Shown: positions 10,199 through 29,335, counted from the stretch's first letter. The stretch: 32,000 bases of DNA from Bacteroidota bacterium (GCA_040388475.1 JAZKBT010000006.1:314262-346261), one strand, 5' to 3'. Notes: generated by a model not told the origin, from the sequence alone. Translations and numbers: made by a program.

Positions 10199-10215
10199 GG
10201 ACACCACTACTAGTG

Positions 10216-11649: not shown

Positions 11650-12103
11650 AGTATTAATTGAGTTTCAAAATATTTGCCCCATGTTTTTCAGTATTCTCCG
11701 GCTAAAATTCGCTCAAGGTAATATTGATGTTTTGCAAAAAATCCTATATCACCTGCGTATTTGGTCTACCCGCATATTGAGAAGAAATATTTACACTATC
11801 GTATTCGAAACGGCTTAAAAACACAATATTTAAATCTCTCCACTTGAATTTGTTGAGAAAAGGGCTTATAACTTCAGCAAATTCGGTGCATCTAACTTGC
11901 CTCGGAATTAACTTTATCCGTCTTAAAAGTAAGCTGTTTATAAATAGTAATTTTATGTCTTTTGACCCATCGATGACAATTTGGCAACCCATCCAAACAT
12001 CAAATATGCTGACTACCAACAAATTATAGTTGTGCAATAAAAGGCATAATTTTAGACAAGGTCCAATAACCATTGCACAAGCTGTTAACCAAAAACTGCC
12101 TAG

Positions 12104-15776: not shown

Positions 15777-17369
15777 TTGTTTACTGATTTAGTAACTTTT
15801 GCTCAAAATATGATTAATACACAGCCAAATTCACTCTCCGCCATTTTATATGTCCGAGTAAGCACAGAAGAACAAGCTATCAGAGGCGGTTCTTTAAAAA
15901 CTCAAGAAGATACACTTCGCCAATACTGCAGTCTTCGAAATATTAAAATCAAACGAGTGTATGTCGAAGATCATTCAGCAAAAACATTCAACCGTCCTGA
16001 GTGGAAAAAATTAATTACAGAAATAAAAAGCACTAAGCCGCCGTCAGAGTTGGTGCTTTTTACACGATGGGATAGATTTAGCAGGAACACTGGTGACGCT
16101 TACTCCACTATTAAAGTTCTCCGAAACCTAGGAGTCGATCCTCAAGCCGTCGAACAACCCTTGGATTTATCAGTACCAGAAAATAAAATGATGCTGGCTT
16201 TTTATCTGGCAATTCCGGAAGTTGAGAATGACCGCCGCAGCTTAAATACAAAAATGGGTATGCAACGGGCGAGAGAAACCGGCCGTGTTCTAGGCCGTGC
16301 GCCAATAGGATATGTGAATTATTGTTATCCTAACGGTTTTAAAGGTATTGTTCTTAAATACCCGGAGGCCGCTATCATTGAAAATGCATTTACACGGTTG
16401 GCAAATTCGAAATGTAAAATCACAGATGCATATTCAGAGATATTAAAAGAAGGGCTCATCTGCAGTAGATCCAACTTCTGGAAATTATTACAGAATCCCA
16501 TTTATGCAGGTAACGTAAGAATTACCGATGATGCTAGTGCCAGCTCCTATATAATTCCGGGGCAACACAAAGGAATTGTCTCGGTGGAAACTTTTGATAA
16601 AATTCAACTACTATATTTCGGTAAAAAGAAAAGCAGATTAGAATTTCTTCTGGTCAATAACAGATTCCCTATGCGTGACTTTATGTCTTGTCCTATTTGT
16701 GGTAAACGCTTGACCGCAAGTGTTTCTTCGGGAAGAACGTATAAATATCCCTATTATCATTGTATATGGCCTTGCCGCTACAGGGTTAGAGCAGAAAAAA
16801 TATATGATAGATTTCTTCAAAAATTAACCGGCCTAATTCCTAAAAAAGAATATGTTGATCTGTATATAAGCATTGTTAATGAAAGTTATTCAAGAGAGAA
16901 CAAACGCTTGGCAACAAAGAAAATGAAAGCATTGACCAGTATTGAATTATTCACTGATAGAATTGCTAAAGCCAAGAATTTATTGCTGGATACTCATATC
17001 GATTTTGAAGGATACAATGATATCAAATCTGATCTGGAGAGTAAGATTCAGGTTTTAGGATATACTGTACAAGCCTATTCACAAAAGCAAATTGATCTTA
17101 CCGACAAGATTAAGGGAAGTGCGCGTTTTATTTCAAACCCTAAAAAACTTTTTCAAGCACTTGATGAAATGAACAGGCCTTCGTTACTAAATAGGATTTT
17201 AGTCCGGAGTCAAAATTGGGAGCAAGGAAATTCGAACCATATTTTCCAGCAATCGTTTCGCGCCATCTACGGTTTAGATGAACAGGAGATTGAAGCCAAA
17301 ATGAGCGAAGTTGATGTAAGATCTACTTTAGAAACAATGGCAAATCTTGAGTTATTACTCGTTCAGTAG
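15777..17369 (+). CDS. Large serine recombinase (resolvase/invertase N-domain + recombinase domain + zinc ribbon + coiled coil)
   Basis: AILYVRVSTEEQAIRGGSLKTQ (catalytic Ser), VLFTRWDRFSRN, zinc ribbon CPICGKRLT...YYHCIWPC, long helical C-terminus. The listed start is TTG at 15777. The ATG at 15810 (MINTQPNS) is a plausible true start. Confidence 0.85.
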   Translation: MFTDLVTFAQNMINTQPNSLSAILYVRVSTEEQAIRGGSLKTQEDTLRQYCSLRNIKIKRVYVEDHSAKTFNRPEWKKLITEIKSTKPPSELVLFTRWDRFSRNTGDAYSTIKVLRNLGVDPQAVEQPLDLSVPENKMMLAFYLAIPEVENDRRSLNTKMGMQRARETGRVLGRAPIGYVNYCYPNGFKGIVLKYPEAAIIENAFTRLANSKCKITDAYSEILKEGLICSRSNFWKLLQNPIYAGNVRITDDASASSYIIPGQHKGIVSVETFDKIQLLYFGKKKSRLEFLLVNNRFPMRDFMSCPICGKRLTASVSSGRTYKYPYYHCIWPCRYRVRAEKIYDRFLQKLTGLIPKKEYVDLYISIVNESYSRENKRLATKKMKALTSIELFTDRIAKAKNLLLDTHIDFEGYNDIKSDLESKIQVLGYTVQAYSQKQIDLTDKIKGSARFISNPKKLFQALDEMNRPSLLNRILVRSQNWEQGNSNHIFQQSFRAIYGLDEQEIEAKMSEVDVRSTLETMANLELLLVQ

Positions 17370-17807: not shown

Positions 17808-19793
17808 TTATGCATTGCCTGTATCTTGTTTTTTACGTTCTTTTTCTTTGATCAGACGCGCTACTTCGGTTTCAATTAAGCTACGTATTTCATATTTGAT
17901 CTGGAAAAAATTATCCATTACTTCCTGTCGAGAAACTTTTTTTATTACCGGTATGGAAGTAAAACCGTGCATTTCCTTGTTTACTGTTTCGGTGTTTTGG
18001 ATTATCTGAGAATGAAACATCTTAAGTGCGATTTTTTCATGTGGATCATCAGCAACCATTCCAACGAATTCGCCTGATGAAAGAGATGATATTTTACTGG
18101 GTGGAATTGCAGATTCTAATTGCTGTGATAAGCTGACGGAAGTATCCGTCCGATTAATCGACAGGCTTTCCCGATCCTGATTTATTCGACCAAACCGATC
18201 CGACAAGGTTTTTGCAGTGTCTCCCATTACCTGGCCACTGATAATGTTGCCGCAAATATTAATGATCACATCGGCCTGCTCCTTGCCATAATCTTTCCTA
18301 AGCTGGCTAAAATCCTGCATACCCAAAACGGTTGCTACTTTATTACTTCTCGCAGTTGCAATCAGTGAATCCATGTTATTAAAAAACAGTGTGGGGAATT
18401 CATCGAATACCAGAGCGCATTTCTGTTGCCCTTTTTTATTTACCAGTTTAACCAACCTCGAAACATACAGTGATATAACAGCGCCATAAATTCCTTGCTT
18501 TTCCGGGTTATTGCCAACACATACAATTTTGGGATCCTCCGGGTTATTGATGTCAAGCGTAAAGTCGTTCCCCGATAGAACCCAATAGAGCTGGGGTGAA
18601 GCAAGTCGCGCCATGCCAATCTTTGCACTCGCAACCTGTCCTTCTAATTGTTCCATCGCATCATTACGGAAAGCAGTAATAAAGGGGTTAATATAAACCT
18701 CTATTTCAGGAACTGTATTCAGCACCGGCAGCAGGTCATCGTATTCTGCCTGCATCAGTTCAATTGCATGTGGTAGCGTACAGTATTTCCCGTTTTCATA
18801 TCGGCGAAGAAACCAGATAATTGCAGTAACGAAATTGATTGGTGACTCGACAAAAAAATCACCTTGTTTTCTTATCCATTCCCTGTTCAATCCTAACAAT
18901 ATGGTGCGCGCGCTTTCAGTCGCATCTGTGATATCATGCATGCCCATTGGATCGAGCGGGTTACACCTGTGGGAGCTATCAAGGTCGTCAAAGTTGATGG
19001 TATAAAAAGTGGGTGCTTTTGAGAACCTTTTTTTGTTAGCCTGCAGCCAGTTATAAGCAGAACGGGAAAGGTCGTCATACTTAAAATCATAGACGAACAT
19101 TGCATATCCTTTCTCAATCATCTGGCGCATAAGCGGCAGGATAACAAACCAGGATTTTCCGGCACCTGGCGTGCCGCATACAATAGATCCCCGAAATGGG
19201 TTGGGTATGTTTATCCAACTGAATCGACTATTGTTTTTAAGCTGATACTTTGCACGAAAATTTACCGAGTATTCATTCTGAATCAGCCGCTCTTCCTGCG
19301 GAAAAGTTTCATTCATTACATTAAAAATGTCGGTGGCTAATTTCTGGCGAATGATCCTGCTCACCATAGTACCTCCAGCCATTACTAGCAGGAAGCCAAT
19401 TGTTACAAAAAATAGATACGCCTGCGTGATCGATTGCGGCGTTGAAAAGAGCCTGAATGCAAGAGCACTAACAAAGAATAACAGCAACCCTGCGGCAATA
19501 CAAATGCAGATAGAAATCCAGTTTTGGCTGACTTCCTTTTTACCCTGCACACCTGCCAGCCCTATAACCAATAGTAAAAGGCAAAACCACTTAGCACGGG
19601 TGAAATTGGCAAATAATCCAGTTGCAGCGATCCGCGCAAGTATCTTATCAGAGACTGACGAAGTAAAATGCCATTCCTGGAATGCAGCATAACATGAATA
19701 ATAGATATGCAATCCAAGCATTCCTACACTAGAAAATCTTGTCAGGTCCAGGATCTTTCGTAAATCCGTTTCATTCTCACCAGTAGATGACAT
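17808..19793 (-). CDS. mobC: Type IV coupling protein (Bacteroidota MobC / TraG-TraD family)
   Basis: 661 aa. N-terminal transmembrane helices, Walker A GTPGAGKSWFV, Walker B-like CALVFDEFPTLF. Sits directly downstream of the relaxase gene. Confidence 0.85.
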   Translation of the reverse strand: MSSTGENETDLRKILDLTRFSSVGMLGLHIYYSCYAAFQEWHFTSSVSDKILARIAATGLFANFTRAKWFCLLLLVIGLAGVQGKKEVSQNWISICICIAAGLLLFFVSALAFRLFSTPQSITQAYLFFVTIGFLLVMAGGTMVSRIIRQKLATDIFNVMNETFPQEERLIQNEYSVNFRAKYQLKNNSRFSWINIPNPFRGSIVCGTPGAGKSWFVILPLMRQMIEKGYAMFVYDFKYDDLSRSAYNWLQANKKRFSKAPTFYTINFDDLDSSHRCNPLDPMGMHDITDATESARTILLGLNREWIRKQGDFFVESPINFVTAIIWFLRRYENGKYCTLPHAIELMQAEYDDLLPVLNTVPEIEVYINPFITAFRNDAMEQLEGQVASAKIGMARLASPQLYWVLSGNDFTLDINNPEDPKIVCVGNNPEKQGIYGAVISLYVSRLVKLVNKKGQQKCALVFDEFPTLFFNNMDSLIATARSNKVATVLGMQDFSQLRKDYGKEQADVIINICGNIISGQVMGDTAKTLSDRFGRINQDRESLSINRTDTSVSLSQQLESAIPPSKISSLSSGEFVGMVADDPHEKIALKMFHSQIIQNTETVNKEMHGFTSIPVIKKVSRQEVMDNFFQIKYEIRSLIETEVARLIKEKERKKQDTGNA

Positions 19794-19820
19794 TCACACA
19801 CACATTTTCTGTTTAAACAA

Positions 19821-21026
19821 TCATCGTTTCCTCTTTCTTTTCTTCTTCTTCAATGCGAACGGCGTTGGATTAAATTCGTTCTCAGGCTGCATCAAGGACT
19901 CGACAGCCGACAACCCATTAAATTCTATCAACCCGGTTTTTGCTACATGGTGTATTTTATGACTAACTGGTTCGATCTGATTATTCATTTGTTTCAGAAG
20001 TCCGGCGATACTATACTGCCTGCCTAAATAAGAACCATTACATACCATTTTATTTTCGTTGTCAACAAACGTAATCCCGTACATTCTACCTTCTGCGTTC
20101 TGGCGTATAACCGTAGCGACATTCTTTGCCAAAAGCATCGCAGATAATTCATGAATTGAACCCGGATTATTTTGCATTACACTTGCAAGTTTTTGCTGAA
20201 CTTTTTCTTTCAATGCTTCCCGAAGCGTATGATTTTTTTCAAACCGCTTTTCGAGAGTTGTAAGCGTTGGATTTCCGGCCATCGAACTTGCTTTGATTGG
20301 GACACCAATTTTATTTCCGTTCCGATCAAGTACGTGGTATAACAATCCTTTTTTTAAATGGATAAATCCATCCTTTGCACCTGGATCGGCAATGACGTTA
20401 AACTGCTTTAGCACTGCGTTCAATTCCGGTAGTGAACAATAATTGTAGGTAGGCAATACCTGCTGCAAAACATTGGCAATCCCACGCTTTGTTTCAGATT
20501 TTCCATACAACAGTTTTGTGTTGTCAAATGGAACAACTAAGGCTTTATTGACTCCCGATTCTTCTGCTTTTATCAAGCCGTATTTTTGTTCAAGAAATTT
20601 CCTTGCGAGCTCGGATTGATTTCGTCCCATATTGTGTGTATTGATCCGCTCTCCGTTCGCACGAATTGTTGTCGATACAATATGGACATGCGGATGCCCT
20701 GCGTCGTAGTGGTGATAGACGAGAAAAGGCTGATCCCCGAATCCAATCAAAGCCATGTATTCACGTGCGATTTGCAATAAGGTTTCCGGTGCGCAGGAGT
20801 CCCTGGTGCTGAAATTGAGCGATACGTGAATGGTGTTTGTTTTTACGCCTTCTTTCAGCCTGTTCCTGTGTTCAAAATGGTCCAGTTTGTCATAAAAATT
20901 CATTTTTTTTAACGGCAATAAAAAGCCGTTTTCCCCAATGCATGTTGCGTTCCCTTTTTTTACTTTCTGTTCATTGTAATTCAATGTTTTTTGAAGGCTG
21001 TGCGGTGTTGTTATTCGTGCAACCAT
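19821..21026 (-). CDS. mobB: Relaxase / mobilization nuclease (Bacteroidota MobB type)
   Basis: MVARITTPHSLQKTLNYNEQKV N-terminus, and the histidine triad VYHHYDAGHPHVHIVSTTI typical of the relaxase/mobilisation nuclease domain. Overlaps mobA by 16 nt. Confidence 0.85.
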   Translation of the reverse strand: MVARITTPHSLQKTLNYNEQKVKKGNATCIGENGFLLPLKKMNFYDKLDHFEHRNRLKEGVKTNTIHVSLNFSTRDSCAPETLLQIAREYMALIGFGDQPFLVYHHYDAGHPHVHIVSTTIRANGERINTHNMGRNQSELARKFLEQKYGLIKAEESGVNKALVVPFDNTKLLYGKSETKRGIANVLQQVLPTYNYCSLPELNAVLKQFNVIADPGAKDGFIHLKKGLLYHVLDRNGNKIGVPIKASSMAGNPTLTTLEKRFEKNHTLREALKEKVQQKLASVMQNNPGSIHELSAMLLAKNVATVIRQNAEGRMYGITFVDNENKMVCNGSYLGRQYSIAGLLKQMNNQIEPVSHKIHHVAKTGLIEFNGLSAVESLMQPENEFNPTPFALKKKKRKRKR

Positions 21027-21415
21027 AACTGATAAACCTGGTTCGCAATTGAAATGAGCTGATCTGTCTTAGATAAAAACTGGTGGTGGGCAGTTTCATA
21101 TTTCACAGACCAATTTCTAAACTCTGGAATGCGGTCAAGCGTATGCAGTTTATGCACTGCCTGATTGAAGTTGTTTCCAATCGCATTCAGTTCCTGTTTT
21201 ATCAGAAGCATTTGTTCCAAAAAGTCATCTGCACTTGCATTACGATAAAACAATGTAACCGGCTGTTGAATCGCAACCCGGCGCAGGTAAGTGCTGATAT
21301 TTTTGTCAGTAGAATTTTGCTGGAACTTTTTCAGTTTCTCGTATTCACCTTCGTTCAATCGAACAAACACTCTTTTGTGTCTTACATAGGCTTCCTCTTT
21401 TTTCATTTGAATCAC
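21011..21415 (-). CDS. mobA: Relaxosome accessory protein (MobC-family Pfam domain; MobA in Bacteroides nomenclature)
   Basis: RVFVRLNEGEYEKL (RHH-like) and LNAIGNNFNQAVHKLH (the iGnNlNQ motif of plasmid mobilisation accessory proteins). First gene of the mob operon. Confidence 0.75.
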   Translation of the reverse strand: MIQMKKEEAYVRHKRVFVRLNEGEYEKLKKFQQNSTDKNISTYLRRVAIQQPVTLFYRNASADDFLEQMLLIKQELNAIGNNFNQAVHKLHTLDRIPEFRNWSVKYETAHHQFLSKTDQLISIANQVYQLWLHE

Positions 21416-21427
21416 TAATTCATTTCA

Positions 21428-21486
21428 CCCATGCGAGTCCCGAGCATGGGCAAGATGCCCAAACGTCTGACGTTTGTACATCTTGC
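21428..21486. promoter_or_regulatory. Candidate oriT: adjacent and nested inverted repeats upstream of mobA
   Basis: IR1 is cccatgc (21428-21434) with gcatggg (21444-21450). IR2 is a 37-bp near-perfect palindrome at 21450-21486, with outer arms gcaagatg/catcttgc and inner arms caaacgtc-t-gacgtttg. It lies in the 208-bp gap between mobA and radC. Confidence 0.4.
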
Positions 21487-21623: not shown

Positions 21624-22097
21624 TTATAGCAACCCGTCATCTGCAAACGACATATAACCTTCACTGGTTAGTATGATATGATCGATCAATTTTATTTCCA
21701 TGAGAAGGGATGCCTGTTTCAGGTTTGCTGTCAAGGTCTTATCACGCTCACTGGGTTGCAGGTTTCCACTAGGATGGTTGTGGCAAATGATCATAGCCGT
21801 GGCTTTCAACTTCAGGGCGCCAGCCAGCAGAAGCCGCGGGTCGGCAACTGTTCCGGTGATACCACCTGTTGACATTTTCTTTATTGCAAGCACATGGTTG
21901 GTTGTATCAAGATAAATCACTTTGAATTGTTCAACTAATTGTATTCTTTTCCGGTTCCATGAACGCTTTAACAGCCACCAGGAATCAAGAGACTTCCTTA
22001 TCTGGAATCGTCTTGATGCCGGGACTTGCGAAACATACACCAATTCGATTTCGGATACAATGTTTAATGATGGCAGGGTTTGGTATTGGTCGATCAT
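21624..22097 (-). CDS. radC: RadC-like JAB/MPN+ metalloprotease domain protein
   Basis: FKVIYLDTTNHVLAIKKMSTGGITGTVADPRLLLAGALKLKATAMIICHNHPSGNLQPSERDKTLT...LIDHIIL is the classic RadC C-terminal JAB domain with HNHPSG..PS..D. Confidence 0.85.
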   Translation of the reverse strand: MIDQYQTLPSLNIVSEIELVYVSQVPASRRFQIRKSLDSWWLLKRSWNRKRIQLVEQFKVIYLDTTNHVLAIKKMSTGGITGTVADPRLLLAGALKLKATAMIICHNHPSGNLQPSERDKTLTANLKQASLLMEIKLIDHIILTSEGYMSFADDGLL

Positions 22098-22119
22098 ATA
22101 GTATTTTTTAGGTGGGGAT

Positions 22120-22914
22120 CTATTTTACTGGGATGGGTTGTGTTTTAAAATCTTTGAGATTGAGGAAAAAGCCGCGGTAGTGCGTCATTCCTTCCCTGAA
22201 CATTGACCATAGAAGGGAAGCACCGAGCGCCGACAAAGTTGTGTTGATGAACAGATCCTGTTTGTGTAAGGCTTCTGCCATTGAACAACTTGGCGAAAGG
22301 TCTTCCGGTTGGGATTTCAGGAGTTCTTTAAATTCATCAGTCAGGTATGGCAATTTGGCGTGGGTGAGATATTTTTCCGAGGCGGGTTGTTTTACTTCGC
22401 CAATGGTTGATAAAATTACCTGGCCCGATTGCCTGCTGTTACCAAAATCCATCCAGTACACCGGCCTGCTTCTTGATTGTGTTTTGGTATCCATTTTTTT
22501 AAGAACAGAAGCAATCTCGAATCTTGTTTTGATACTATCAACGCAGGAGATAATAATGTTGCCGCTCAACTCATTTTTGTCCGACCTGGATGATACTTTT
22601 TTGCAATGAGCCTTCCAGTTCGTACCGAAGAATCGGTTCAAACGGTTGATGAGAACAACAGACTTTGGAAAACCGATTTCATTTTTGGTGAAGAGTTGTC
22701 TTCCCATATTCGCAGAGGTGACCAAATCATCGTCAAAGAGCTTAACCGCAATTCCCGGATGACCGAGAGCTACAAGGGAAATATTGATCCGCCCAAGCGC
22801 CGTTAAGACCTGGCTGCCTGTGCCACCTGCACCGATCAGGTTTACGATCACCGGATTGGTAGGAGTAAGCAGGTATTTGTCAGTAAAATGAACGGAGGGT
22901 TTAGTCGATTCCAT
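22120..22914 (-). CDS. PRTRC-system ThiF-family E1-like adenylyltransferase
   Basis: Rossmann loop VNLIGAGGTGSQVL, and FDDDLVTSANMGRQLF...EIGFPKS, the ThiF/MoeB/E1 adenylation motif. Overlaps the upstream gene by 14 nt. Confidence 0.8.
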   Translation of the reverse strand: MESTKPSVHFTDKYLLTPTNPVIVNLIGAGGTGSQVLTALGRINISLVALGHPGIAVKLFDDDLVTSANMGRQLFTKNEIGFPKSVVLINRLNRFFGTNWKAHCKKVSSRSDKNELSGNIIISCVDSIKTRFEIASVLKKMDTKTQSRSRPVYWMDFGNSRQSGQVILSTIGEVKQPASEKYLTHAKLPYLTDEFKELLKSQPEDLSPSCSMAEALHKQDLFINTTLSALGASLLWSMFREGMTHYRGFFLNLKDFKTQPIPVK

Positions 22915-23635
22915 GTAATAATTGTTTTAGTTTTTTTCCTGACTTCAATAGCTCTACTTGTGGAAACTGTTTTTTAGAGCCTGAGAGTTTACTGAATAAC
23001 TGAATGATGTTTGATTTAACCGGGGATCGTTCCCCGAGAAGGTGAGAGAATTTGCTCTTGAAAAAATAGTTATGCCATTCGTCCATAAATTCTTCCAGAT
23101 CGCAATTTGCGCCGATGTCAATTTCTACGGTTCCCATGCATACCAAACCGCCTGTATGGATATTGAAAAATGGTGCATTGTATAGCAGTGTTTCCGTGGA
23201 TGGCCGCTCGTTATTTTTGAGTGCAAATATTTTCAGTTTGTCGCGGCTCGCCATCCATAGTAAAGGTGGAACTGGATAGACGCCATCGGCGATTTTCAAA
23301 TCCGGGATAAAATAGAGCTGTTTTTTCTGTGCCGGCGTGTACCAGATTACGTAACCATCTTTACCTGTTCGCAGGTATACAATGTTTTCAGGCAGTAAAC
23401 CGGAACCCTGAAAGCATCCTTTATTTTCTTCTTCATTATGTAATAGTATTTCCCCGAGTTCGTGGCTTTCCTGCAAACCCAATGGATGCGCGTTGATCAT
23501 TTTTCCATTGTCGTTTATATCAAACGATTCCACAAAAAAATTCTCATTGTTTTGCTGGTCAGCATAGATGACAATTCCCTTGATCGGGTGGTAGGGATCG
23601 GTAAACAATTTGGTTAGGTTATGCATATAGGTCAT
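22901..23635 (-). CDS. PRTRC system protein B-like, putative prokaryotic E2-like protein
   Basis: 244 aa. NAPFFNIHTGGLVCMGTV resembles the E2 HPN...C active-site arrangement. It sits immediately upstream of the E1-like gene, as in PRTRC cassettes. Confidence 0.55.
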   Translation of the reverse strand: MTYMHNLTKLFTDPYHPIKGIVIYADQQNNENFFVESFDINDNGKMINAHPLGLQESHELGEILLHNEEENKGCFQGSGLLPENIVYLRTGKDGYVIWYTPAQKKQLYFIPDLKIADGVYPVPPLLWMASRDKLKIFALKNNERPSTETLLYNAPFFNIHTGGLVCMGTVEIDIGANCDLEEFMDEWHNYFFKSKFSHLLGERSPVKSNIIQLFSKLSGSKKQFPQVELLKSGKKLKQLLHGID

Positions 23636-24716
23636 TTAAGATGTCAGCTAATTCATTAAGCAATTCGAGTAACTGTTTCTGGAAACTGAATTCGTGGATG
23701 ATTTCTGTATGTGGAGTTTCAAACTTTTGGATAGAGAATGGAACATCGAAAATTGTTTTCTCCTGTAGCTCACAGTTAACCCATTCGAGTAACTGATCCA
23801 TCATCCAGCCATCGGATGCCCAGCAAAACGAAAAGAACTGATCAATGTAGGCGCGGTCGTCTTCCTCGTCAGGATGGAGAAATTCACCAGCGTTGTTTGA
23901 TGCAAATTTTTCATCAGGGAACTGCCGCCACAGTGCATGGATTTTTTTTGAAAGGGAAAGCAGATTGGCATCGAAATCATCTGCCGGTTTGAATTGTTCA
24001 ATTCTGTTAATAAAATCTAACAGGTTGGTCGTGTTTGCAATATGCTTATTCAAAATTGACGAGTATCGTTTTGCTGCTGTAAAAACCTCCATGATGCCGC
24101 GATATTCTTGTTCCTCAAATTCATCCTCATTATCGGAATAAGACTGTTCCATCATGTCATATTCCCCTTGTATGTAGGAGGAAGTATTCAGGAGAGGCAT
24201 ACCCGCGATATGGTGCAGGTAGGAATAGACAGAGAGCAGCAGGTTGAATGTGTCGCCCTTTTCTCGTTGATGAAGGAAACGCAGCGCGTCAAGTGGCACA
24301 TAATACAGGGTTAATCCAATATCGATTTCTTTCACTGTTGCAATAACAGGGTAACCGTCATCTTCCTGAACGATTAACAATTCAACATTGGCGGAACGTT
24401 TTATCATTTCCGCCTGTGTGTTTGCAAAAAGTTCAGCAATACAAAAAGGATATTTTTTTATTGAGACCAGATTCGGTTTAAAACCATATAATGAAGCGAG
24501 ATTCTGTATGGAATTGATAAAGGATTCTTTTGCCTTTTTAATGACAACCCGGGAAGGGTTCATCAATGCTGTAACCGGCCTGAAGGATTGCTTTAGAAAA
24601 TCATGGGCGTGTTCGCCAATGGTGCGCATTTTGGCTTTATCTTTCTTACAGCTGATGCGTCCGGCAGATAATTTATGTTGCGGGCGAATTTTCCGAGCTT
24701 CTTGTATACTGTCCAT
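23619..24716 (-). CDS. Hypothetical protein embedded in the PRTRC cassette
   Basis: 365-aa ORF with coding-like composition. Overlaps the downstream gene by 17 nt. I recognise no motif. It has an acidic patch SYSDNEDEFEEQEY. Confidence 0.5.
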   Translation of the reverse strand: MDSIQEARKIRPQHKLSAGRISCKKDKAKMRTIGEHAHDFLKQSFRPVTALMNPSRVVIKKAKESFINSIQNLASLYGFKPNLVSIKKYPFCIAELFANTQAEMIKRSANVELLIVQEDDGYPVIATVKEIDIGLTLYYVPLDALRFLHQREKGDTFNLLLSVYSYLHHIAGMPLLNTSSYIQGEYDMMEQSYSDNEDEFEEQEYRGIMEVFTAAKRYSSILNKHIANTTNLLDFINRIEQFKPADDFDANLLSLSKKIHALWRQFPDEKFASNNAGEFLHPDEEDDRAYIDQFFSFCWASDGWMMDQLLEWVNCELQEKTIFDVPFSIQKFETPHTEIIHEFSFQKQLLELLNELADILNDLYA

Positions 24717-24768
24717 ATTTCGTCCTGTTTCTGAATGAATGAGTGTGTGGTATTTTTCTTTTTCATGG

Positions 24769-24987
24769 CTATCCTTTTGTACCGAGTGTTGTTACGAATT
24801 TGTAAGCCACTTTATCACCAGTGATTTCGGGCCCTTCAATTTTTGCGGTTGTCAGGATAGGGTAGGTTGCCGAGTAAAAATTCAGCACTGATTCAGGAGA
24901 AAATATTTCGTGCGGATCTGACAGTTCTACTTCTGTACCGGCATTGTCAAACCTAAATACACGAGGAAGTTCATTTGTAATTAGCAT
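24769..24987 (-). CDS. PRTRC system protein C-like ubiquitin-like protein (72 aa, C-terminal Gly)
   Basis: Using the Met at 24987 (MLITNELPRVFRF...) avoids overlap with the upstream gene. The protein ends ...KFVTTLGTKG-stop, an exposed terminal glycine as in ThiS/MoaD/Ub-like proteins. It lies next to E1- and E2-like genes. Confidence 0.6.
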   Translation of the reverse strand: MLITNELPRVFRFDNAGTEVELSDPHEIFSPESVLNFYSATYPILTTAKIEGPEITGDKVAYKFVTTLGTKG

Positions 24988-25012
24988 ATAGAGTAGTTTT
25001 TTAGAGTTTCGG

Positions 25013-25663
25013 TTATCTGTTTGGATCGAGATCATCTTCTTCCCCCGGTTCATCGACTTCGTCCGGATCTGTGTCTTCGTCAGGGTCAATGTCTTCGTCT
25101 GGATCTGTTACAGTTGTGTCTTCCTCCGGTTCGACAACAGTTTCGGTTGGGGTGTCCCCGAACAAAGAGAGTGTACCATGTTTACTACGCAATTGCTGCA
25201 TTTTATTTTTGATCTCGGTTTCAAATTCTGGATAGGTTTTTGTATCAGGCATTTGCCCAATCGCCTCACCGATCTTATTTAGTCTTTCGAGGTCAGATAC
25301 TTTCTTCATCTGTTCGTCAAACTTTTTTCGTTTGGCATCCTTACTGCCGACTGGTGCAGAACTTGTTTTGTTATTATTATTCTGAATATTTTTCAATGCA
25401 GCCTCATGTTCTTTCATATTACAGAGCAACTGGTTTGTTTTTTGAACGGGCACTTTGATCGTGTCGAAGAATTTTTGATCGAGTTCTTCAATACTTCCTT
25501 TCAGGATCAATGGCGGTATTTTGTTTGCCGATTTATCTTTTAAAGAATCATTGACAAGCAACAGCGAAACAGTCATTGTTGCATCATCCTGTGGCTGAAT
25601 GTTCAGCCTGATATTGCCTGTGAGATTCATCGCGGCGATCTGTTGGAAAAAGTTTGTTAGCAT
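25013..25663 (-). CDS. PRTRC system protein E-like protein with acidic repeat tail
   Basis: Its position directly upstream of the Ubl gene and the N-terminus MLTNFFQQIAAMNL... fit my memory of PRTRC protein E. The C-terminal tail reads EPEEDTTVTDPDEDIDPDEDTDPDEVDEPGEEDDLDP. Confidence 0.5.
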   Translation of the reverse strand: MLTNFFQQIAAMNLTGNIRLNIQPQDDATMTVSLLLVNDSLKDKSANKIPPLILKGSIEELDQKFFDTIKVPVQKTNQLLCNMKEHEAALKNIQNNNNKTSSAPVGSKDAKRKKFDEQMKKVSDLERLNKIGEAIGQMPDTKTYPEFETEIKNKMQQLRSKHGTLSLFGDTPTETVVEPEEDTTVTDPDEDIDPDEDTDPDEVDEPGEEDDLDPNR

Positions 25664-25684: not shown

Positions 25685-26464
25685 TTACAATTTGTTGTCG
25701 GTAGAGGGAGTGAGTATTTGTTTGGCGATATAGATAGCATAGTTTGTTATATGGCGCTGCCATGCTCCTTGTGAAGGTGACCACCTGAAACCGTTGGATT
25801 TAAGTTTTTTACGCATCTCTTCTGCAGGAATCGCATCGAACAGGATTTGCACGCGGTTTGCTTCGACATTCAGCACAATACGGGCATCGCCGATGCGTGT
25901 CTCAGTGCTGGTTAGCGCCTGAATTTTAGTCATCTGTTCAATACGTTCTTTTACACGCCTGATCTCTGCTGAATTATTGGCAAATTTGTAATGTGGGAAA
26001 CCCATTTCGTTGGGGCGGTTCAATTCTTCCCACATTTCTTCAGTGCCAGAATCAAGTGCCAGGAAGCCTTCTTTGTTCTTTTTACGAAGGCATTGGTTCG
26101 CAGCCTTCATAAATAACTGTGTCTTTCCCAAACTGACCAGCTTTTCTTTCAGCTTTACCAAAGCATCAGGGTCATCAGAGGAAATTGCTGTATTTGATTC
26201 GATGGTTTCGGCCTTTTCCTCATAATATTTTGCTTTGTCACCAGCTTCAAAAGCACGTCCGAATGTGTTGTGAATTTTATTCCTGTATTTGCGATCAGAT
26301 TTCTCGCTGTGGTGTCCTACCAGGATGGGTTGCCCAAAGGGAATTACAGAAGCCATTTTCTCGGCCTGGTTAAAGAGCTGTTCGGATAATTTTTCATTTT
26401 TTTCCGCCTGCTTTTTAGCATTAGCGATGCGGTTTGCTTTTCTATCGTGAAAGTTGTGTTTCAT
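25685..26464 (-). CDS. DUF3560 domain protein
   Basis: FGQPILVGHHSEKSDRKYRNKI and the C-terminal GFRWSPSQGAWQRH resemble DUF3560 proteins common on conjugative elements. This is a recollection, not a search result. Confidence 0.55.
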   Translation of the reverse strand: MKHNFHDRKANRIANAKKQAEKNEKLSEQLFNQAEKMASVIPFGQPILVGHHSEKSDRKYRNKIHNTFGRAFEAGDKAKYYEEKAETIESNTAISSDDPDALVKLKEKLVSLGKTQLFMKAANQCLRKKNKEGFLALDSGTEEMWEELNRPNEMGFPHYKFANNSAEIRRVKERIEQMTKIQALTSTETRIGDARIVLNVEANRVQILFDAIPAEEMRKKLKSNGFRWSPSQGAWQRHITNYAIYIAKQILTPSTDNKL

Positions 26465-26832
26465 ATCTCAGCTTTTTTGTCGTTGATAATTTTTATTGTA
26501 GTCTGGTTAATGGGATAGTAACCGTACTCGTAACAATACCAGATTGTCCTGTTGTCTTTTGACTTTATACCGGTGATGTAGTCAAAGTGAAAGCCATCAT
26601 TCACCAGCAGCAACCGGGAGCAGATCGTTGTTCCTTTATTTTCCAATCTTTTTTTAAGCAGGTACCTGTTGCGTGCCAGCGCATGATTCACATTCCTGAC
26701 CGTGATGTTATCAGTACGGCTGACTTTGTTATGGTAATCGTTTCTACAACCATCGTTACAGAATTTTTTGTCTGAGCGACCATGTACTGGCCGCCCGCAA
26801 TTGTTACAAGGACGATTAGTGATCGGTTCCAT
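26461..26832 (-). CDS. FCS/TRASH-type zinc-ribbon protein (paralog of 28949-29335)
   Basis: CNNCGRPVHGRSDKKFCNDGCRNDYHN (CxxC-x14-CxxxC). ATGA overlap with the downstream gene. Confidence 0.5.
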   Translation of the reverse strand: MEPITNRPCNNCGRPVHGRSDKKFCNDGCRNDYHNKVSRTDNITVRNVNHALARNRYLLKKRLENKGTTICSRLLLVNDGFHFDYITGIKSKDNRTIWYCYEYGYYPINQTTIKIINDKKAEI

Positions 26833-26849
26833 ACGTTTTTAGATTTGGA

Positions 26850-27227
26850 TTAGAATGGGAGATCGGGAATAGGTTCGGTGAGTTCATGCGGCTGCGGTTC
26901 TTTGGCAGGCTCTGCTTTTTTACCACGGATCAGTTTGATTGAATCTGCGTGGCAGTTAATGCTGGCTTTCGCATTCCCACTCATGTCATTGTAAGCATTG
27001 ATGAACAGGCGGCCATTGATGGTAACGATCGAACCTTTGGTAAGGATCTTTGCGATTCCAGTTCCCATCCACCAGGCGATGTTGATGAAGGTTGTAAATT
27101 CTTTTGCTTCCGTTGCACCTTTGGATTTGTAACGGTCGTTGATGGCAACGCAGAAGTTGACTACTTCTTTATCTCCTTTAACTGTGGAGACAGTTGCATC
27201 TGCTGTGATTGTTCCTGTGAATTCCAT
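26850..27227 (-). CDS. ssb: Single-stranded DNA-binding protein
   Basis: OB-fold pattern (VNFCVAINDRY...FTTFINIAWWMGTGIAKILTKGSIVTINGRLF) and the canonical acidic SSB tip ...EPIPDLPF-stop. Confidence 0.8.
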   Translation of the reverse strand: MEFTGTITADATVSTVKGDKEVVNFCVAINDRYKSKGATEAKEFTTFINIAWWMGTGIAKILTKGSIVTINGRLFINAYNDMSGNAKASINCHADSIKLIRGKKAEPAKEPQPHELTEPIPDLPF

Positions 27228-27387: not shown

Positions 27388-27906
27388 TCAGGGAACAAAT
27401 GCTGGTAACACTCCTGTTCGTACAAATTGATCATAGGCGGCATCGGAAAATGGGGAAGTGTTCTGGAGCAACTTCATGCATGGTTTGTGACGCCAATCTT
27501 TTTGCTGCGACTGGATTGTTAGAAAATGTTGCCATTGGTCGTCTGTGAGTTTGATCTCAGCTTCGTTGACAATTTCGAATGACCAATCGTAACCGAACCG
27601 TTTAATATATTTTTCTGCAATCTTTTGGCGTTTGGTTTGGTCGTGATTGAATCCGTAAGGTTTTATTTCCACGAGTTTGGAATTTCCTGTTTTCCAATCG
27701 CGTACCAGGAAATCGGGACGGTAACAATGCACGTGTCCTTTGACACCGTTTGCGAGGCCATGCAGACCGTAATACATTTCGAGGCCATCACGTATCCATG
27801 CGTGTGTATGCTCTATACTTAAAATGTATTTTAATTCGAGTAAAGAATCGAGCTGACATCCATTGTAGAATATGCATGTTCCTTCAGAAGTATATGTAAA
27901 ATTCAT
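27388..27906 (-). CDS. TnsA-N-like PD-(D/E)xK endonuclease (paralog 2)
   Basis: CQLDSLLELKYILSIE, YRPDFLVRDWKTGNSKLVEIKPYGF, YDWSFEIV. This is the E...PD...E-x-K motif set of TnsA endonuclease N-terminal-type proteins. Confidence 0.6.
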   Translation of the reverse strand: MNFTYTSEGTCIFYNGCQLDSLLELKYILSIEHTHAWIRDGLEMYYGLHGLANGVKGHVHCYRPDFLVRDWKTGNSKLVEIKPYGFNHDQTKRQKIAEKYIKRFGYDWSFEIVNEAEIKLTDDQWQHFLTIQSQQKDWRHKPCMKLLQNTSPFSDAAYDQFVRTGVLPAFVP

Positions 27907-27918
27907 TTTGTTATTGAT

Positions 27919-28488
27919 TTAGAGTAAGCGCATTTGTTTCCAATGAGATTGTGTTCGGTGGGGTCCTGAAATGATAAGGTCCGAAAGCATGTTGTCGGGG
28001 AAAGCCTGGCCGGATCGTAGGCAGTAATCTTTGAACCAAAGTGCAAGCGATTTGTCTGATGTGATGGCTTTGACTTCTTCGAAAGATTTTAATTGCTCTT
28101 CATTTAATAGGATCAGGTCATCGAATACGATTTTGAAAATCCAGTCGAGGTTTTTACGCGCGATATAATTTTCTGCTACTGCTTTTCTTAATGCGAGCTG
28201 CGGATGATTTTCAAAGGCGCGTGGTTTTATTTCGACCAGGAAAGATTGATAAGTCTGTTTGTGCCGGATCAGGAAATCGGGTGTGTAGCGCAAATGACAG
28301 CGCCTGATCTTGTCAAGGGTGATTTTTGTCCCGGGATGGTAATAAATGGAAACCGGAGACCGAAGAAAATGGTATTTGTCCATGATAGAAATGGCGTACT
28401 TCAGTTCGGTGAGTGAATCGAACTGGCAATTCCATGCAGAGACTTTTCGCGATTGTTTGTAAGGAAAGGCGTTTTTTCTGGAAGGCAT
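27919..28488 (-). CDS. TnsA-N-like PD-(D/E)xK endonuclease (paralog 1)
   Basis: CQFDSLTELKYAISIM, YTPDFLIRHKQTYQSFLVEIKPRAF, LDWIFKIV. Collinear with the downstream paralog. Confidence 0.6.
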   Translation of the reverse strand: MPSRKNAFPYKQSRKVSAWNCQFDSLTELKYAISIMDKYHFLRSPVSIYYHPGTKITLDKIRRCHLRYTPDFLIRHKQTYQSFLVEIKPRAFENHPQLALRKAVAENYIARKNLDWIFKIVFDDLILLNEEQLKSFEEVKAITSDKSLALWFKDYCLRSGQAFPDNMLSDLIISGPHRTQSHWKQMRLL

Positions 28489-28503: not shown

Positions 28504-28833
28504 TTAACGATCGAGGTTGAGTAAATGATTGGCCTTGACCTCAGTGATCTTTTTGTATATCCCTTCCTTGTTTTTAAAAGTGCGATTAAGGGAGTAGCCA
28601 CGGATTAGGATGTGACTTCCCTTGCTAAAATTGTCCGGCACTTTTTCTGCCAACTGATCCCAGACCATTACATCGTGCCAGGTCGTTTTTTTAATAACGG
28701 TTCCGTCCGAGGTTCTTCTGAAATAATCAGTAGCCACCCGCAATCTTGTGTAGAGGGAGCCGTTATATGCTTTCTTCAAAGTTGGCTCGTGACCGAGATA
28801 ACCAATAAGCTGGATGCTGTTTTCTGTTTTCAT
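28504..28833 (-). CDS. SSB-like OB-fold protein lacking the acidic C-terminal tail
   Basis: IQLIGYLGHEPTLKKAYNGSLYTRLRVATD...TTWHDVMVWDQLAEKV...KGSHILIRGYSLNRTF fits the SSB OB fold. It ends ...HLLNLDR with no D-L-P-F tip. Confidence 0.6.
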   Translation of the reverse strand: MKTENSIQLIGYLGHEPTLKKAYNGSLYTRLRVATDYFRRTSDGTVIKKTTWHDVMVWDQLAEKVPDNFSKGSHILIRGYSLNRTFKNKEGIYKKITEVKANHLLNLDR

Positions 28834-28948: not shown

Positions 28949-29335
28949 GTGGGTATGAAACCTGAAACTACCATTGATAGGAAATGCCTTTCATGCGACA
29001 AAACACTGGATGCAAAAAAGAGGAAAGACAGTAAATTTTGCAATGAATACTGCAGGGCTGCTTATCACAATCCAAAACGTGCAGGCATTGATCCGCGGGT
29101 GGTCAAAATAAATAAGATCCTTTACAAGAATCTGGAGATAATGGAATCTTTACTCGGGAAACGTCAGTATCTGTCTGTTGATACAGAGAAGCTGAATAAG
29201 AAGGGATTCAACTTTAATTTCTTTACTCAGGAGAACAGCGAATACCGTTATGTTTATTATATGTGCTATACAGCTAAAGGGGGTGGAAGCTATATAATCT
29301 CCAAGGGCTTTGAGAGTGTTCTGAAACTGGATTGA
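28949..29335 (+). CDS. FCS/TRASH-type zinc-ribbon protein (paralog of 26461-26832)
   Basis: CLSCDKTLDAKKRKDSKFCNEYCRAAYHN, plus shared downstream features (GFNFNFF, YRYVYYMCY versus GFHFDYI, WYCYEYGYY). It is the only clearly coding plus-strand gene in the 17.8-30.5 kb block. Confidence 0.5.
   Translation: MGMKPETTIDRKCLSCDKTLDAKKRKDSKFCNEYCRAAYHNPKRAGIDPRVVKINKILYKNLEIMESLLGKRQYLSVDTEKLNKKGFNFNFFTQENSEYRYVYYMCYTAKGGGSYIISKGFESVLKLD

What the first reader, a model, noticed from the sequence alone, without database searches (positions are those of the whole stretch)
21624..25663. Complete ubiquitin-like conjugation cassette (Ubl, E2-like, E1-like, JAB) encoded next to oriT on a mobile element
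Transcription runs right to left, and the genes appear in this order:
- a PRTRC-E-like protein;
- a 72-aa protein ending in …LGTKG-stop, with an exposed C-terminal Gly;
- an unassigned 365-aa protein;
- a 244-aa protein with NIHTGGLVCMG, an E2-like HPN…C arrangement;
- a ThiF/E1-like adenylase (GAGGTGS; DDDLVTSANMGRQ);
- a RadC-type JAB metalloprotease (HNHPSG..PS..D).

Several of these genes overlap by 14-17 nt.

This is the PRTRC (ParB-related, ThiF-related cassette) family, which is known only from comparative genomics. To my knowledge its substrate and role are not established. Related bacterial Ubl systems, the Bil type, were recently shown to conjugate a Ubl to phage proteins. A version carried on a conjugative or mobilizable element beside oriT may instead modify element or recipient-cell proteins during transfer. 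No ParB-like component (PRTRC protein D) is present in the window.
Basis: partly seen in the sequence, partly recalled or inferred. Interest (0 to 1): 0.7.

Follow-up and report, generated by a model that had tools for sequence, protein, structure and literature searches.

The report
JAB-less PRTRC ubiquitin-like cassette beside oriT
This is a real but already catalogued gene cassette (PRTRC) that encodes a small ubiquitin-like protein and the two enzymes needed to attach it to other proteins. It sits in the backbone of a Bacteroidota transferable element, next to its transfer origin, and its biological role has never been tested.

Summary
On the minus strand at 21624-25663 lie PRTRC_E, a 72-aa Ubl ending GTKG-stop, an unassigned 365-aa protein, a Prok-E2_D/PRTRC_B protein, a PRTRC ThiF-type E1 and a RadC-type JAB. 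The 14- and 17-nt overlaps are as described.

NCBI already annotates this exact E2-like protein as PRTRC system protein B. Relatives occur in 380 species-level genomes and 405 plasmids.

In the 80 best Bacteroidota loci the conserved unit is E-Ubl-X-E2-E1, preceded by SSB and DUF932. RadC is present in 1 of 80, so it is a neighbour, not the cognate deubiquitinase. The Ubl is encoded already mature (77/77 end in Gly). In proteobacterial loci that carry the dedicated JAB (protein A), 4 of 5 Ubls have a C-terminal extension.

E1 Cys210 and E2 Asn158-x7-Cys166 are invariant across phyla. The 365-aa protein fills the fast-evolving "F" slot. Its model is confident (pLDDT 89) but has no PDB match.

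A conserved, covarying hairpin element upstream of mobA supports the oriT call. Gene orientation fits a leading-region module.

Best reading: a thioester Ubl relay that acts early after transfer. This is inferred, not shown. It is a new member of a known, uncharacterised family.

The parts
25013..25663 (-). PRTRC system protein E (216 aa). It has a conserved N-terminal domain, a Lys-rich middle and an acidic tail specific to this lineage.
   Evidence: PF19556 E=3.4e-45 and TIGR03741 above cutoff. Present in 75/80 related loci, median 34% identity.
24769..24987 (-). Ubiquitin-like protein PRTRC_C / Prok_Ub (72 aa), encoded in mature form with a C-terminal Gly.
   Evidence: PF14454 E=1.2e-22 and TIGR03738 above cutoff. 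All 77 homologues in related loci end GTKG-stop, and 73 are exactly 72 aa. The terminal Gly is kept across phyla.
23619..24716 (-). 365-aa 'X-slot' protein. It is the positional counterpart of PRTRC protein F and a candidate specificity subunit or substrate.
   Evidence: No family match. Present in 78/80 loci between Ubl and E2 and is the fastest-evolving member, median 28% identity. 415 cluster representatives, all about 360 aa. AF2 model pLDDT 89.1, pTM 0.81, with residues 1-50 disordered. No PDB match. One BFVD match at E=8.8e-9. hhalign against PRTRC_F is not significant.
22901..23635 (-). E2-like protein PRTRC_B / Prok-E2_D (244 aa; NCBI start gives 241 aa).
   Evidence: PF14460 E=1.4e-33. 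The identical protein is named PRTRC system protein B by NCBI. N158-x7-C166 is invariant in 27 Bacteroidota and 11 cross-phylum sequences. H198 is invariant in the 27 and kept in 10 of the 11. The motif aligns to HPN...Cys of classical E2s (hhalign pairwise P=0.0015). Foldseek against the PDB was inconclusive.
22120..22914 (-). E1-like adenylating enzyme, PRTRC ThiF family (264 aa, single adenylation domain).
   Evidence: TIGR03736 242.6 bits against a cutoff of 144.75. Invariant across phyla: the glycine-rich nucleotide loop (GAGGTGS here), the conserved Asn..Arg-Gln motif (DDDLVTSANMGRQ here), D126 and S-C210-S. Weak match to E. coli ThiF and Cap2 structures.
21624..22097 (-). RadC-type JAB metalloprotease (157 aa, JAB domain only). 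It is a neighbour gene, probably co-transcribed, and not a conserved cassette member.
   Evidence: PF04002 E=1.7e-36. A homologue follows ThiF in only 1/80 loci, and a JAB motif scan finds the same single locus. Absent in the closest relative L001. A 22-nt gap separates it from the ThiF stop.
21434..21484 (-). Putative oriT core. It consists of nested inverted repeats (GGCAAGATG..CATCTTGCC around CAAACGT..ACGTTTG) followed by a hairpin that presents CTCGGGACTCG.
   Evidence: Read directly from the sequence. Aligned just upstream of mobA in 8 related loci (A4), with compensatory changes in the inner stem. A strict motif search finds exactly one copy in 8 loci and in the window, on the mobA strand and downstream of ThiF. 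The nick site and transfer direction were not determined.
17808..21415 (-). Mobilisation operon: MobA-like accessory protein (21011-21415), MobA/VirD2-family relaxase (19821-21026) and type IV coupling protein (17808-19793).
   Evidence: NF041324 and PF19514/PF21983 for MobA; PF03432 for the relaxase; PF14293, PF02534 and PF10412 for the coupling protein.
25685..27227 (-). Co-oriented upstream genes of leading-region type: DUF3560 (25685-26464), a zinc-ribbon protein (26461-26832) and SSB (26850-27227).
   Evidence: PF12083 E=3.7e-42 and PF00436 E=3.9e-14. 69 of the 80 loci hold at least 5 kb of upstream sequence; SSB lies upstream and co-oriented in 68 loci and DUF932 in 65. SSB, DUF932/YubP and DUF3560 are among the top leading-region families in PMC11541004.

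Best explanation
What it is: a Bacteroidota-type PRTRC cassette (Iyer et al. 2006 operon type '6d') reduced to five genes, PRTRC_E - Ubl - X (365 aa) - E2 - E1. It has no dedicated JAB and no ParB. It is a backbone module of conjugative or mobilisable elements, not variable cargo.

Proposed chemistry (inferred):
1. The ThiF-type E1 adenylates Gly72 of the ready-made 72-aa Ubl.
2. E1 takes the Ubl as a thioester on invariant Cys210.
3. The Ubl passes to Cys166 of the E2-like protein, with Asn158 in the position of the E2 oxyanion Asn.
4. The Ubl is then transferred to an amine on a target.

The fast-evolving X protein is translationally coupled to E2 by a 17-nt overlap. PRTRC_E also evolves fast. 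These two are the best candidates for the specificity subunit or the substrate.

In most lineages no dedicated deconjugating enzyme is encoded, so the tag would be effectively one-way.

Proposed setting (inferred): the cassette belongs to a co-oriented gene train, SSB - DUF932 or DUF3560 - PRTRC, that here runs into oriT and the mob operon. That geometry matches plasmid leading regions. I therefore propose that it is expressed early in the new host and helps establishment, by tagging either element proteins or host defence and repair proteins. RadC is an independent neighbour of the same region.
For: Identity:
- HMM matches for E, C, B and ThiF.
- NCBI names the identical E2-like protein PRTRC system protein B.
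- Gene order matches pHG1 ParB-E-C-F-B-A-ThiF and Iyer Table 1 row 6d.

Core composition:
- In the 80 best of 380 genome loci: E2 80, ThiF 79, X 78, Ubl 77, E 75, RadC 1.
- JAB-less E-C-X-B-ThiF also occurs in Parabacteroides, Salinimonas, Aeromonas, Deinococcus and Pseudomonas plasmids.

Chemistry:
- The terminal Gly is universal. 77/77 Bacteroidota Ubls end at it.
- E1 Cys210 and E2 N158-x7-C166 are invariant across 11 loci from several phyla.
- The active-site motif aligns to classical E2s.

JAB as processing enzyme:
- 4 of 5 loci with protein A have a Ubl extended beyond the Gly.
- No JAB-less locus does.

X as a variable subunit:
- Median identity is 28% for X, against 58% for ThiF.
- X-slot proteins of 7 other lineages have no Pfam match. 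Only the Burkholderiales type is alpha-hel2.

Setting:
- Conserved covarying oriT element upstream of mobA.
- SSB in 68 and DUF932 in 65 loci, upstream and co-oriented; 69 loci have enough upstream sequence.
- PMC11541004 says relaxases are typically lagging and that the anti-defence, methyltransferase, SSB and toxin-antitoxin genes of the leading region all lie on the T-strand orientation. It keeps MOB_B among the leading-enriched types. It lists SSB, DUF932/YubP, ParB and DUF3560 as top leading families. It lists PRTRC B and E under 'Other unknown leading families'.

Not a known defence system: no PADLOC match except generic E1 similarity.
Against: - No experiment exists for any PRTRC system in the library searched. 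No component has a solved structure by sequence search.
- The E2 fold was not confirmed. Foldseek against the PDB gave no hit at E<=0.001. Ube2S and Rad6 appear only at E=1.6-3.2.
- The beta-grasp fold of the Ubl was not tested directly, and a crude profile comparison failed.
- Mob genes lie within 10 kb in only 10 of 80 loci. In 3 loci mob genes lie upstream of the module rather than downstream.
- The nick site and transfer direction are unknown for this relaxase type. 'Leading' therefore rests on a general rule.
- 205 of 405 plasmids carrying a PRTRC ThiF are typed non-mobilisable. That fits poorly with a strictly transfer-linked role.
- No target is known.
Confidence: 0.5

Rival explanations
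1. One reading: a complete four-part system in which the adjacent RadC-type JAB is the cognate protease or deubiquitinase for the Ubl.
For: RadC starts 22 nt after the ThiF stop on the same strand. It has an intact JAMM site. Canonical PRTRC and Bil systems do include a JAB. L002 shares the arrangement.
Against: RadC or any JAB motif is present in 1/80 related loci and is absent from the closest relative L001. The PRTRC JAB is a different family, DUF2016+Prok-JAB. The Ubl needs no C-terminal processing. From general knowledge, not tested here: RadC-like JAB genes are common, without any Ubl system, beside DUF932, antirestriction and DUF905 genes in enterobacterial islands.
Confidence: 0.1
2. 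A Bil-like defence system carried by the element. It would tag proteins of phages or competing mobile elements to protect the host and the element.
For: The characterised bacterial Ubl pathways (type II CBASS, Bil) function in anti-phage immunity, and genomic context suggests the same for Bub. NCBIfam names a '6A-MBL' anti-phage system. Mobile elements often carry defence genes, and this window has OLD-like, Shedu and Hachiman genes 5-14 kb away. A fast-evolving X subunit would suit recognition of a target in an arms race. PRTRC also occurs on plasmids typed non-mobilisable.
Against: No PADLOC model matches the Ubl, E2, X or E. The cassette keeps fixed neighbours (SSB, DUF932) and a fixed orientation in the element backbone, rather than sitting in variable cargo. 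All related E. anophelis ICEs carry it. PRTRC B and E appear among leading-region families.
Confidence: 0.18
3. A housekeeping regulator of the resident element. Ubl tagging would control the stability or activity of partition, replication or excision proteins (for example the PRTRC ParB in Proteobacteria) in the established host, unrelated to entry.
For: Proteobacterial cassettes are fused to a dedicated ParB, and sometimes sit next to DnaN or ParAB. Half of the plasmids are typed non-mobilisable. B. thetaiotaomicron homologues BT2645-BT2649 are detected in ordinary culture transcriptomes. Iyer et al. speculated that the cassette maintains itself through opposing activities.
Against: Bacteroidota versions have no ParB in the window or in the examined flanks. 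Most lineages have no deconjugase, so reversible regulation is unlikely. The association with SSB, DUF932 and DUF3560 points to the single-stranded entry phase.
Confidence: 0.14
4. Not a protein-tagging system. The E1 and Ubl would act as a ThiS/MoaD-like sulfur carrier or acyl-adenylate ligase for a small molecule, and the 'E2' would be a non-catalytic partner.
For: The nearest solved relatives of the E1 are ThiF proteins. The E1 is a minimal single-domain enzyme of 264 aa. The E2 fold is unconfirmed.
Against: Scores for the ThiF and MoeB equivalog models are far below cutoff, 37.5 against 275. There are no sulfur-metabolism neighbours. The E2-like Asn-x7-Cys is invariant across phyla and aligns with the E2 active site. 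The Ubl ends in a single Gly after Lys rather than GG.
Confidence: 0.05

Closest known systems
PRTRC, ParB-related ThiF-related cassette (TIGR03734-03742); Iyer, Burroughs & Aravind 2006 operon type 6d. Reference locus: Cupriavidus necator pHG1.
   Same: Same gene order, E-C-(F slot)-B-ThiF. HMM matches to E, C, B and ThiF. Terminal Gly on the Ubl. The E2 lacks the HPN His but keeps Asn, Cys and a downstream His. The E1 Cys is invariant. It is carried on a mobile element.
   Different: No ParB. No protein A (DUF2016+Prok-JAB). The F-slot protein is not alpha-hel2 (PF14456) and shows no detectable similarity to it. The Ubl has no C-terminal extension. It is preceded by SSB plus DUF932 or DUF3560 rather than by ParB.
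Bil (BilABCD) anti-phage Ubl conjugation systems
   Same: A free-standing Ubl, an E2 and an E1 with catalytic cysteines. No E3 is encoded. In Bil the E2 is proposed to choose targets.
   Different: No PADLOC match for the Ubl or E2. The E1 here is one 264-aa adenylation domain, whereas BilD is IAD-AAD-CYS. No conserved JAB. The context is an element backbone, not a defence island.
Bub (6E/DUF6527) pathways
   Same: A diverged bacterial E1/E2/Ubl set. Type II Bub also typically lacks a JAB.
   Different: Bub E1 and E2 lack catalytic Cys and use Tyr and Ser oxyesters. Bub also encodes the DUF6527 serine protease and uses fused proteins. Here both Cys are invariant and there is no DUF6527.
Type II CBASS Cap2/Cap3
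   Same: The E1 adenylation domain is distantly similar (NF058523 and PADLOC E1-E2 models at E about 1e-6; Cap2 structures at E about 0.009).
   Different: Cap2 is an E2-E1 fusion that conjugates the CD-NTase itself, with no Ubl gene. Cap3 is a JAB. No CD-NTase or effector is present here.
Leading-region anti-defence and establishment islands of conjugative plasmids (Samuel et al. 2024, PMC11541004)
   Same: It lies on the side of oriT opposite the relaxase. All genes are co-oriented with the relaxase operon, so the transferred strand would be the template. It contains SSB and DUF3560, or DUF932 in relatives. PRTRC B and E are listed among 'Other unknown leading families'.
   Different: No known anti-restriction, anti-CRISPR or PsiB gene was recognised here. 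The transfer direction is unproven for this element. Most related loci have no oriT within 10 kb.

Membership tests
PRTRC (NCBIfam/TIGRFAM) | ThiF-family E1 matching TIGR03736 above the curated cutoff | tested here: met
   242.6 bits against a cutoff of 144.75
PRTRC (NCBIfam/TIGRFAM) | Small protein C (Prok_Ub) with a C-terminal Gly | tested here: met
   TIGR03738 59.5 bits against 45.95; PF14454 E=1.2e-22; ends GTKG-stop
PRTRC (NCBIfam/TIGRFAM) | Protein B (Prok-E2_D) with conserved Cys and downstream His | tested here: met
   PF14460 116.5 bits against 25. TIGR03737 E=9e-33 but 113.5 bits, below 131.45. NCBI names the identical protein PRTRC system protein B. C166 and H198 are invariant in 27 Bacteroidota sequences.
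PRTRC (NCBIfam/TIGRFAM) | Protein E | tested here: met
   TIGR03741 40.5 bits against 37.95; PF19556 154 bits
PRTRC (NCBIfam/TIGRFAM) | Protein F (alpha-hel2, PF14456) | tested here: not met
   No HMM hit even at E<=1. hhalign of the family profiles gives prob 0.35%. An unrelated-looking 365-aa protein occupies the slot.
PRTRC (NCBIfam/TIGRFAM) | Protein A (DUF2016 + Prok-JAB) | tested here: not met
   There is no gene between B and ThiF; they overlap by 14 nt. The nearby JAB is RadC family PF04002.
PRTRC (NCBIfam/TIGRFAM) | Dedicated ParB-family protein | tested here: not met
   No ParB_N domain in the window ORFs of 90 aa or more scanned
PRTRC (NCBIfam/TIGRFAM) | Conserved gene order E-C-F-B-(A)-ThiF | tested here: met
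   The window has E-C-X-B-ThiF. The same order is seen in pHG1 and in 9 other plasmids.
Classical E2/UBC superfamily | UBC fold with an active-site Asn about 8 residues before the catalytic Cys | tested here: inconclusive
Ubiquitin-like beta-grasp | Beta-grasp fold | tested here: inconclusive
   The assignment rests on Pfam family membership and on threading reported by Iyer et al..
Bil (BilABCD) | BilA/BilB/BilC/BilD homologues, with an E1 of IAD-AAD-CYS architecture | tested here: not met
   No PADLOC hit for the Ubl, E2 or JAB. The E1 is a single 264-aa domain.
Bub (6E) | Cys-less E1 and E2 (oxyester chemistry) plus the DUF6527 protease | tested here: not met
   Invariant Cys in both enzymes; no DUF6527
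ThiS-ThiF / MoaD-MoeB sulfur transfer | Equivalog-level match to ThiF or MoeB, and cofactor-biosynthesis neighbours | tested here: not met
   37.5 bits against 275 for ThiF and 19.5 against 266 for MoeB. The neighbours are mobile-element genes.
Plasmid/ICE leading region | Lies next to oriT on the side opposite the relaxase, with genes oriented so that the transferred strand is the template | tested here: met
   The order is mobABC, oriT-like element (21434-21484), RadC, PRTRC, DUF3560, SSB, all on one strand. The rule comes from PMC11541004.
Plasmid/ICE leading region | Enters the recipient first (nick strand and direction) | not testable with these tools
   The nick site is not mapped. The literature search gave no direction for this relaxase type.

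The most novel reading that the evidence does not exclude
PRTRC would be a counter-defence or establishment ubiquitin-like system. Conjugative elements would express it from the first DNA to enter a new cell. Its hypervariable X-slot protein would act as an E3-like recogniser that directs irreversible Ubl tagging of host defence or repair proteins, or of the incoming relaxosome and SSB-coated DNA complex. This would be the mirror image of Bil, in which bacteria tag phage proteins.
Probability: 0.3. Interest if true: 0.8.

Novelty: new member of a known kind. Interest (0 to 1): 0.42.

Why it matters
Other bacterial ubiquitin-like pathways (type II CBASS, Bil and Bub) have recently been worked out, the first two as anti-phage systems and Bub biochemically. 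I found no experimental study of PRTRC/6d in the library searched, and none of its specific components has a solved structure by sequence search.

PRTRC is common: 380 species-level genomes matched one pattern scan, and 405 plasmids carry the E1, including Pseudomonas resistance megaplasmids. It rides on conjugative elements.

If it acts during entry into a new host, it would be a post-translational weapon or establishment device of mobile DNA, and a possible lever on the spread of resistance.

This window does not reveal that function. Together with its relatives it sharpens the question:
- The minimal unit is five genes with no deubiquitinase.
- The Ubl is pre-matured.
- The catalytic Cys and Asn residues are defined.
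- The variable subunit is identified.
- A homologous set, BT2645-BT2649, exists in the tractable Bacteroides thetaiotaomicron.

Tried and rejected
- Homology of the 365-aa protein to PRTRC_F: hhalign against one sequence and against a 23-sequence profile was not significant. A Pfam rescan at E<=1 found nothing.
- Fold of the 365-aa protein: Foldseek against the PDB gave no match, and a profile search of PDB sequences gave nothing. BFVD gave one uncharacterised phage protein, whose sequence I could not retrieve.
- E2 fold: Foldseek against the PDB was not significant, and a profile search of PDB sequences gave nothing.
- The E2 scan of IMG/VR gave 21 contigs with the same gene order. I did not establish whether they are phages or misclassified ICEs.
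- Rfam gave no hit and ARAGORN found no tRNA in the window.
- Promoter and terminator scans were no better than shuffles.
- Literature on the transfer direction of Bacteroides conjugative transposons was not decisive.
- Full-text searches for Pfam names and for ubiquitin-like/ParB/ThiF combinations found no functional study.
- I considered RadC as a substitute for the lost JAB and rejected it on co-occurrence (1/80).

Full report
**Observation**

Family searches give:
- PRTRC_E at 25013-25663 (PF19556 E=3.4e-45).
- Prok_Ub/PRTRC_C at 24769-24987 (E=1.2e-22; 72 aa from the ATG; ends LGTKG-stop).
- Nothing for the 365-aa protein at 23619-24716.
- Prok-E2_D/PRTRC_B at 22901-23635 (E=1.4e-33).
- PRTRC ThiF at 22120-22914 (242.6 bits against a curated cutoff of 144.75).
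- A RadC-type JAB at 21624-22097 (E=1.7e-36).

The 14-nt and 17-nt overlaps are exact. The window comes from a Bacteroidota MAG contig of 511 kb. NCBI already names the identical E2-like protein 'PRTRC system protein B' and calls the 365-aa protein hypothetical.

**Surroundings**

Downstream on the same strand lie a MobA-like protein, a MobA/VirD2-family relaxase and a type IV coupling protein (17808-21415). Upstream, still co-oriented, lie DUF3560, a zinc-ribbon protein, SSB, two TnsA-N-like proteins and a second SSB. A large serine recombinase (15777-17369) and a defence island lie to the left. The island holds an OLD-like ATPase with a DpnII-like nuclease, Shedu, and Hachiman HamA with its helicase.

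**The oriT call**

The 208-nt gap between RadC and mobA contains nested inverted repeats. Aligned with the region just upstream of mobA in eight related loci, a block of about 60 nt is conserved. The inner stem changes by compensatory substitutions: CAAACGT/ACGTTTG in some loci, CGGTTGT/ACAACCG in others. A second hairpin presents a conserved CTCGGAACTCG. A strict motif search finds exactly one copy in eight loci and in the window, always on the mobA strand and always downstream of ThiF. That is good comparative support for an oriT at about 21434-21484. The nick site and the direction of transfer were not determined.

**What the cassette consists of**

A pattern scan of one genome per species found 380 loci encoding a relative of the E2-like protein. 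I examined the best 80 with 10-kb flanks. Counts by tblastn:

| Gene | Loci out of 80 |
|---|---|
| E2 | 80 |
| ThiF | 79 |
| 365-aa protein | 78 |
| Ubl | 77 |
| PRTRC_E | 75 |
| RadC | 1 |

A direct scan for the JAB metal-site motif finds the same single locus. The closest relative, L001, runs ThiF, oriT, mobA with no RadC. Sixty-nine of the 80 loci hold at least 5 kb of upstream sequence; SSB lies upstream and co-oriented in 68 loci and DUF932 in 65. The conserved Bacteroidota module is therefore SSB - DUF932 - (DUF1281) - E - Ubl - X - E2 - E1. RadC is an occasional neighbour, and the 'unassigned' protein is a core member.

**Comparison with canonical PRTRC**

On pHG1 the annotated order is ParB - E - C - F - B - A - ThiF. 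Protein F is Pfam alpha-hel2. Protein A is DUF2016+Prok-JAB. This matches row 6d of Iyer et al. 2006 in four respects:
- The components are a Ub-like protein, a JAB, an E1-like protein, an E2-like protein and a 'rapidly diverging' alpha-helical protein.
- The E2 lacks the classical His.
- The E2 has a conserved His after the Cys.
- The JAB carries an extra N-terminal domain.

The 365-aa protein sits in F's slot and is of similar size. Profile-profile comparison with a PRTRC_F alignment is not significant (prob 0.35%). That is not peculiar to this window. The slot protein has no Pfam match in seven other PRTRC lineages, and only the Burkholderiales type is alpha-hel2.

Within Bacteroidota the slot protein evolves fastest. 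Median identity to the window is 28%, against 34% for E, 44% for E2, 53% for the Ubl and 58% for ThiF. Its AlphaFold model is confident (pLDDT 89.1, pTM 0.81), with a disordered, basic N-terminal 50 residues. It has no match in the PDB. It has one match to an uncharacterised phage protein in BFVD (E=8.8e-9). Its near-invariant residues include no Cys or His. I therefore read it as an adaptor or substrate rather than a thiol enzyme.

**JAB and Ubl maturation**

Five plasmid lineages lack protein A altogether: Parabacteroides, Salinimonas, Aeromonas, Deinococcus and Pseudomonas megaplasmids. All of their Ubls stop exactly at the terminal Gly, as do 77/77 Bacteroidota Ubls.

Of five loci that have protein A, four encode a Ubl extended past the Gly. 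The extension is 5 aa in pHG1, 3 aa in B. cenocepacia and about 60 aa in Rhodanobacter and Xanthomonas. Sphingomonas has none. The simplest reading is that the dedicated JAB matures the pro-Ubl, and that JAB-less systems dispense with it by encoding the mature form. The Ubl of the window has nothing to remove. That is a further reason not to link it with RadC.

**Catalytic machinery**

Across 11 PRTRC loci from Bacteroidota, Beta-, Gamma- and Alphaproteobacteria and Deinococcota, the following are conserved:
- E1: the glycine-rich nucleotide loop, the Asp and Asn..Arg-Gln adenylation motifs, Asp126 and an invariant Ser-Cys210-Ser.
- E2-like protein: Asn158, Cys166 and Gly168.
- His198 in all but one.

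This supports a thioester relay.

The fold itself is unconfirmed. The E2 model (pLDDT 81.5) gives no significant Foldseek hit in the PDB, and Ube2S and Rad6 appear only at E 1.6-3.2. The more sensitive libraries were unavailable. The beta-grasp fold of the Ubl rests on the Pfam family and on Iyer et al.'s threading. My own crude test failed.

**Likely role**

No PADLOC model matches the Ubl, E2, X or E. The cassette has fixed neighbours in the element backbone. It therefore does not look like variable defence cargo.

The neighbours are the hallmark families of plasmid leading regions. Samuel et al. 2024 report the following:
- Relaxases are typically on the lagging side.
- The anti-defence, methyltransferase, SSB and toxin-antitoxin genes of the leading region all lie in the orientation that makes the transferred strand the template.
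- MOB_B elements were retained among the types enriched in the leading region.
- DUF932/YubP, SSB, ParB and DUF3560 rank among the largest leading families.
- A supplementary sheet of 'Other unknown leading families' lists PRTRC system B and E, five members each, without comment in the text.

The window reproduces that geometry. I therefore favour early expression in the recipient and a role in establishment or counter-defence.

Four caveats apply:
- Mob genes lie within 10 kb in only 10 of 80 loci, and three loci have mob genes on the other side.
- Half of the PRTRC-bearing plasmids are typed non-mobilisable.
- The transfer direction is assumed.
- No target is known.

**Novelty and value**

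The family has been known from comparative genomics since 2006 and is named by NCBI's pipeline. A 2024 preprint still states that very little is known about it and that its function is unknown. I found no functional or structural study. The window is a new member of that known kind.

What this analysis adds is modest but usable:
- The five-gene JAB-less core.
- The exclusion of RadC.
- The pre-matured Ubl and its correlation with JAB loss.
- The defined catalytic residues.
- The hypervariable slot protein with an unmatched fold.
- A conserved oriT motif.
- The consistent company of leading-region genes.

Noticed in passing
window 7658-15549: A defence island beside the serine recombinase. It holds an OLD-family ATPase (PADLOC Old E=1e-60) with a DpnII/MboI-like nuclease (9326-10198), Shedu SduA (10216-11649, minus strand), and Hachiman HamA (12104-13024) with a DEAD-box helicase (13021-15549). 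Whether it lies inside the mobile element was not determined.
   Followed up: partly
window 27388-28488, and L001/L002: Two tandem paralogous TnsA-N-like (endonuclease-fold) proteins sit between two SSB genes (26850-27227 and 28504-28833). The same pair is conserved in the two closest relatives. Their function in a presumed leading region is unknown.
   Followed up: no
window 26461-26832 (-) and 28949-29335 (+): Two paralogous zinc-ribbon proteins share a C-x2-C ... FC-x3-C-R-x2-YHN motif, and one lies on the opposite strand. There is only a weak DUF2116 treble-clef hit (E=0.0023).
   Followed up: no
window 29929-30495 (-): A 188-aa strongly acidic protein with no family match at the far end of the co-oriented gene train. 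Its composition recalls DNA-mimic anti-restriction proteins. This was not tested.
   Followed up: no
window 22901-23635, residues 1-75 of the E2-like protein: An extra N-terminal beta-beta-beta-alpha domain has residues invariant in Bacteroidota (E36, D39, N48, H50, P51 in an 'INAHPL' motif). These residues are not conserved in proteobacterial PRTRC_B.
   Followed up: partly
L082, L087, L088, L089, L090 compared with L081, L083-L086: PRTRC loci with the dedicated JAB (protein A) encode a Ubl extended beyond the terminal Gly in 4 of 5 cases. In two of them the extension is about 60 aa. JAB-less loci never do.
   Followed up: partly
L091-L111 (IMG/VR contigs): 21 contigs classed as viral carry the same E-C-X-E2-ThiF order, and some also have SSB and DUF932. 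The 365-aa model matches one 'uncultured Caudovirales' protein in BFVD. They may be misclassified ICEs or true phage copies.
   Followed up: partly
window 2051-7521: A glycosyltransferase, GH16, sulfotransferase-like and carbamoyltransferase gene cluster, preceded by a GYF_2-domain membrane protein. It is unrelated to the finding.
   Followed up: no
L084 and L086 (Aeromonas and Pseudomonas plasmids): A plasmid-borne DNA polymerase III beta subunit (dnaN) gene lies within or next to the PRTRC region, and large 'helicase-related' proteins flank several proteobacterial cassettes.
   Followed up: no
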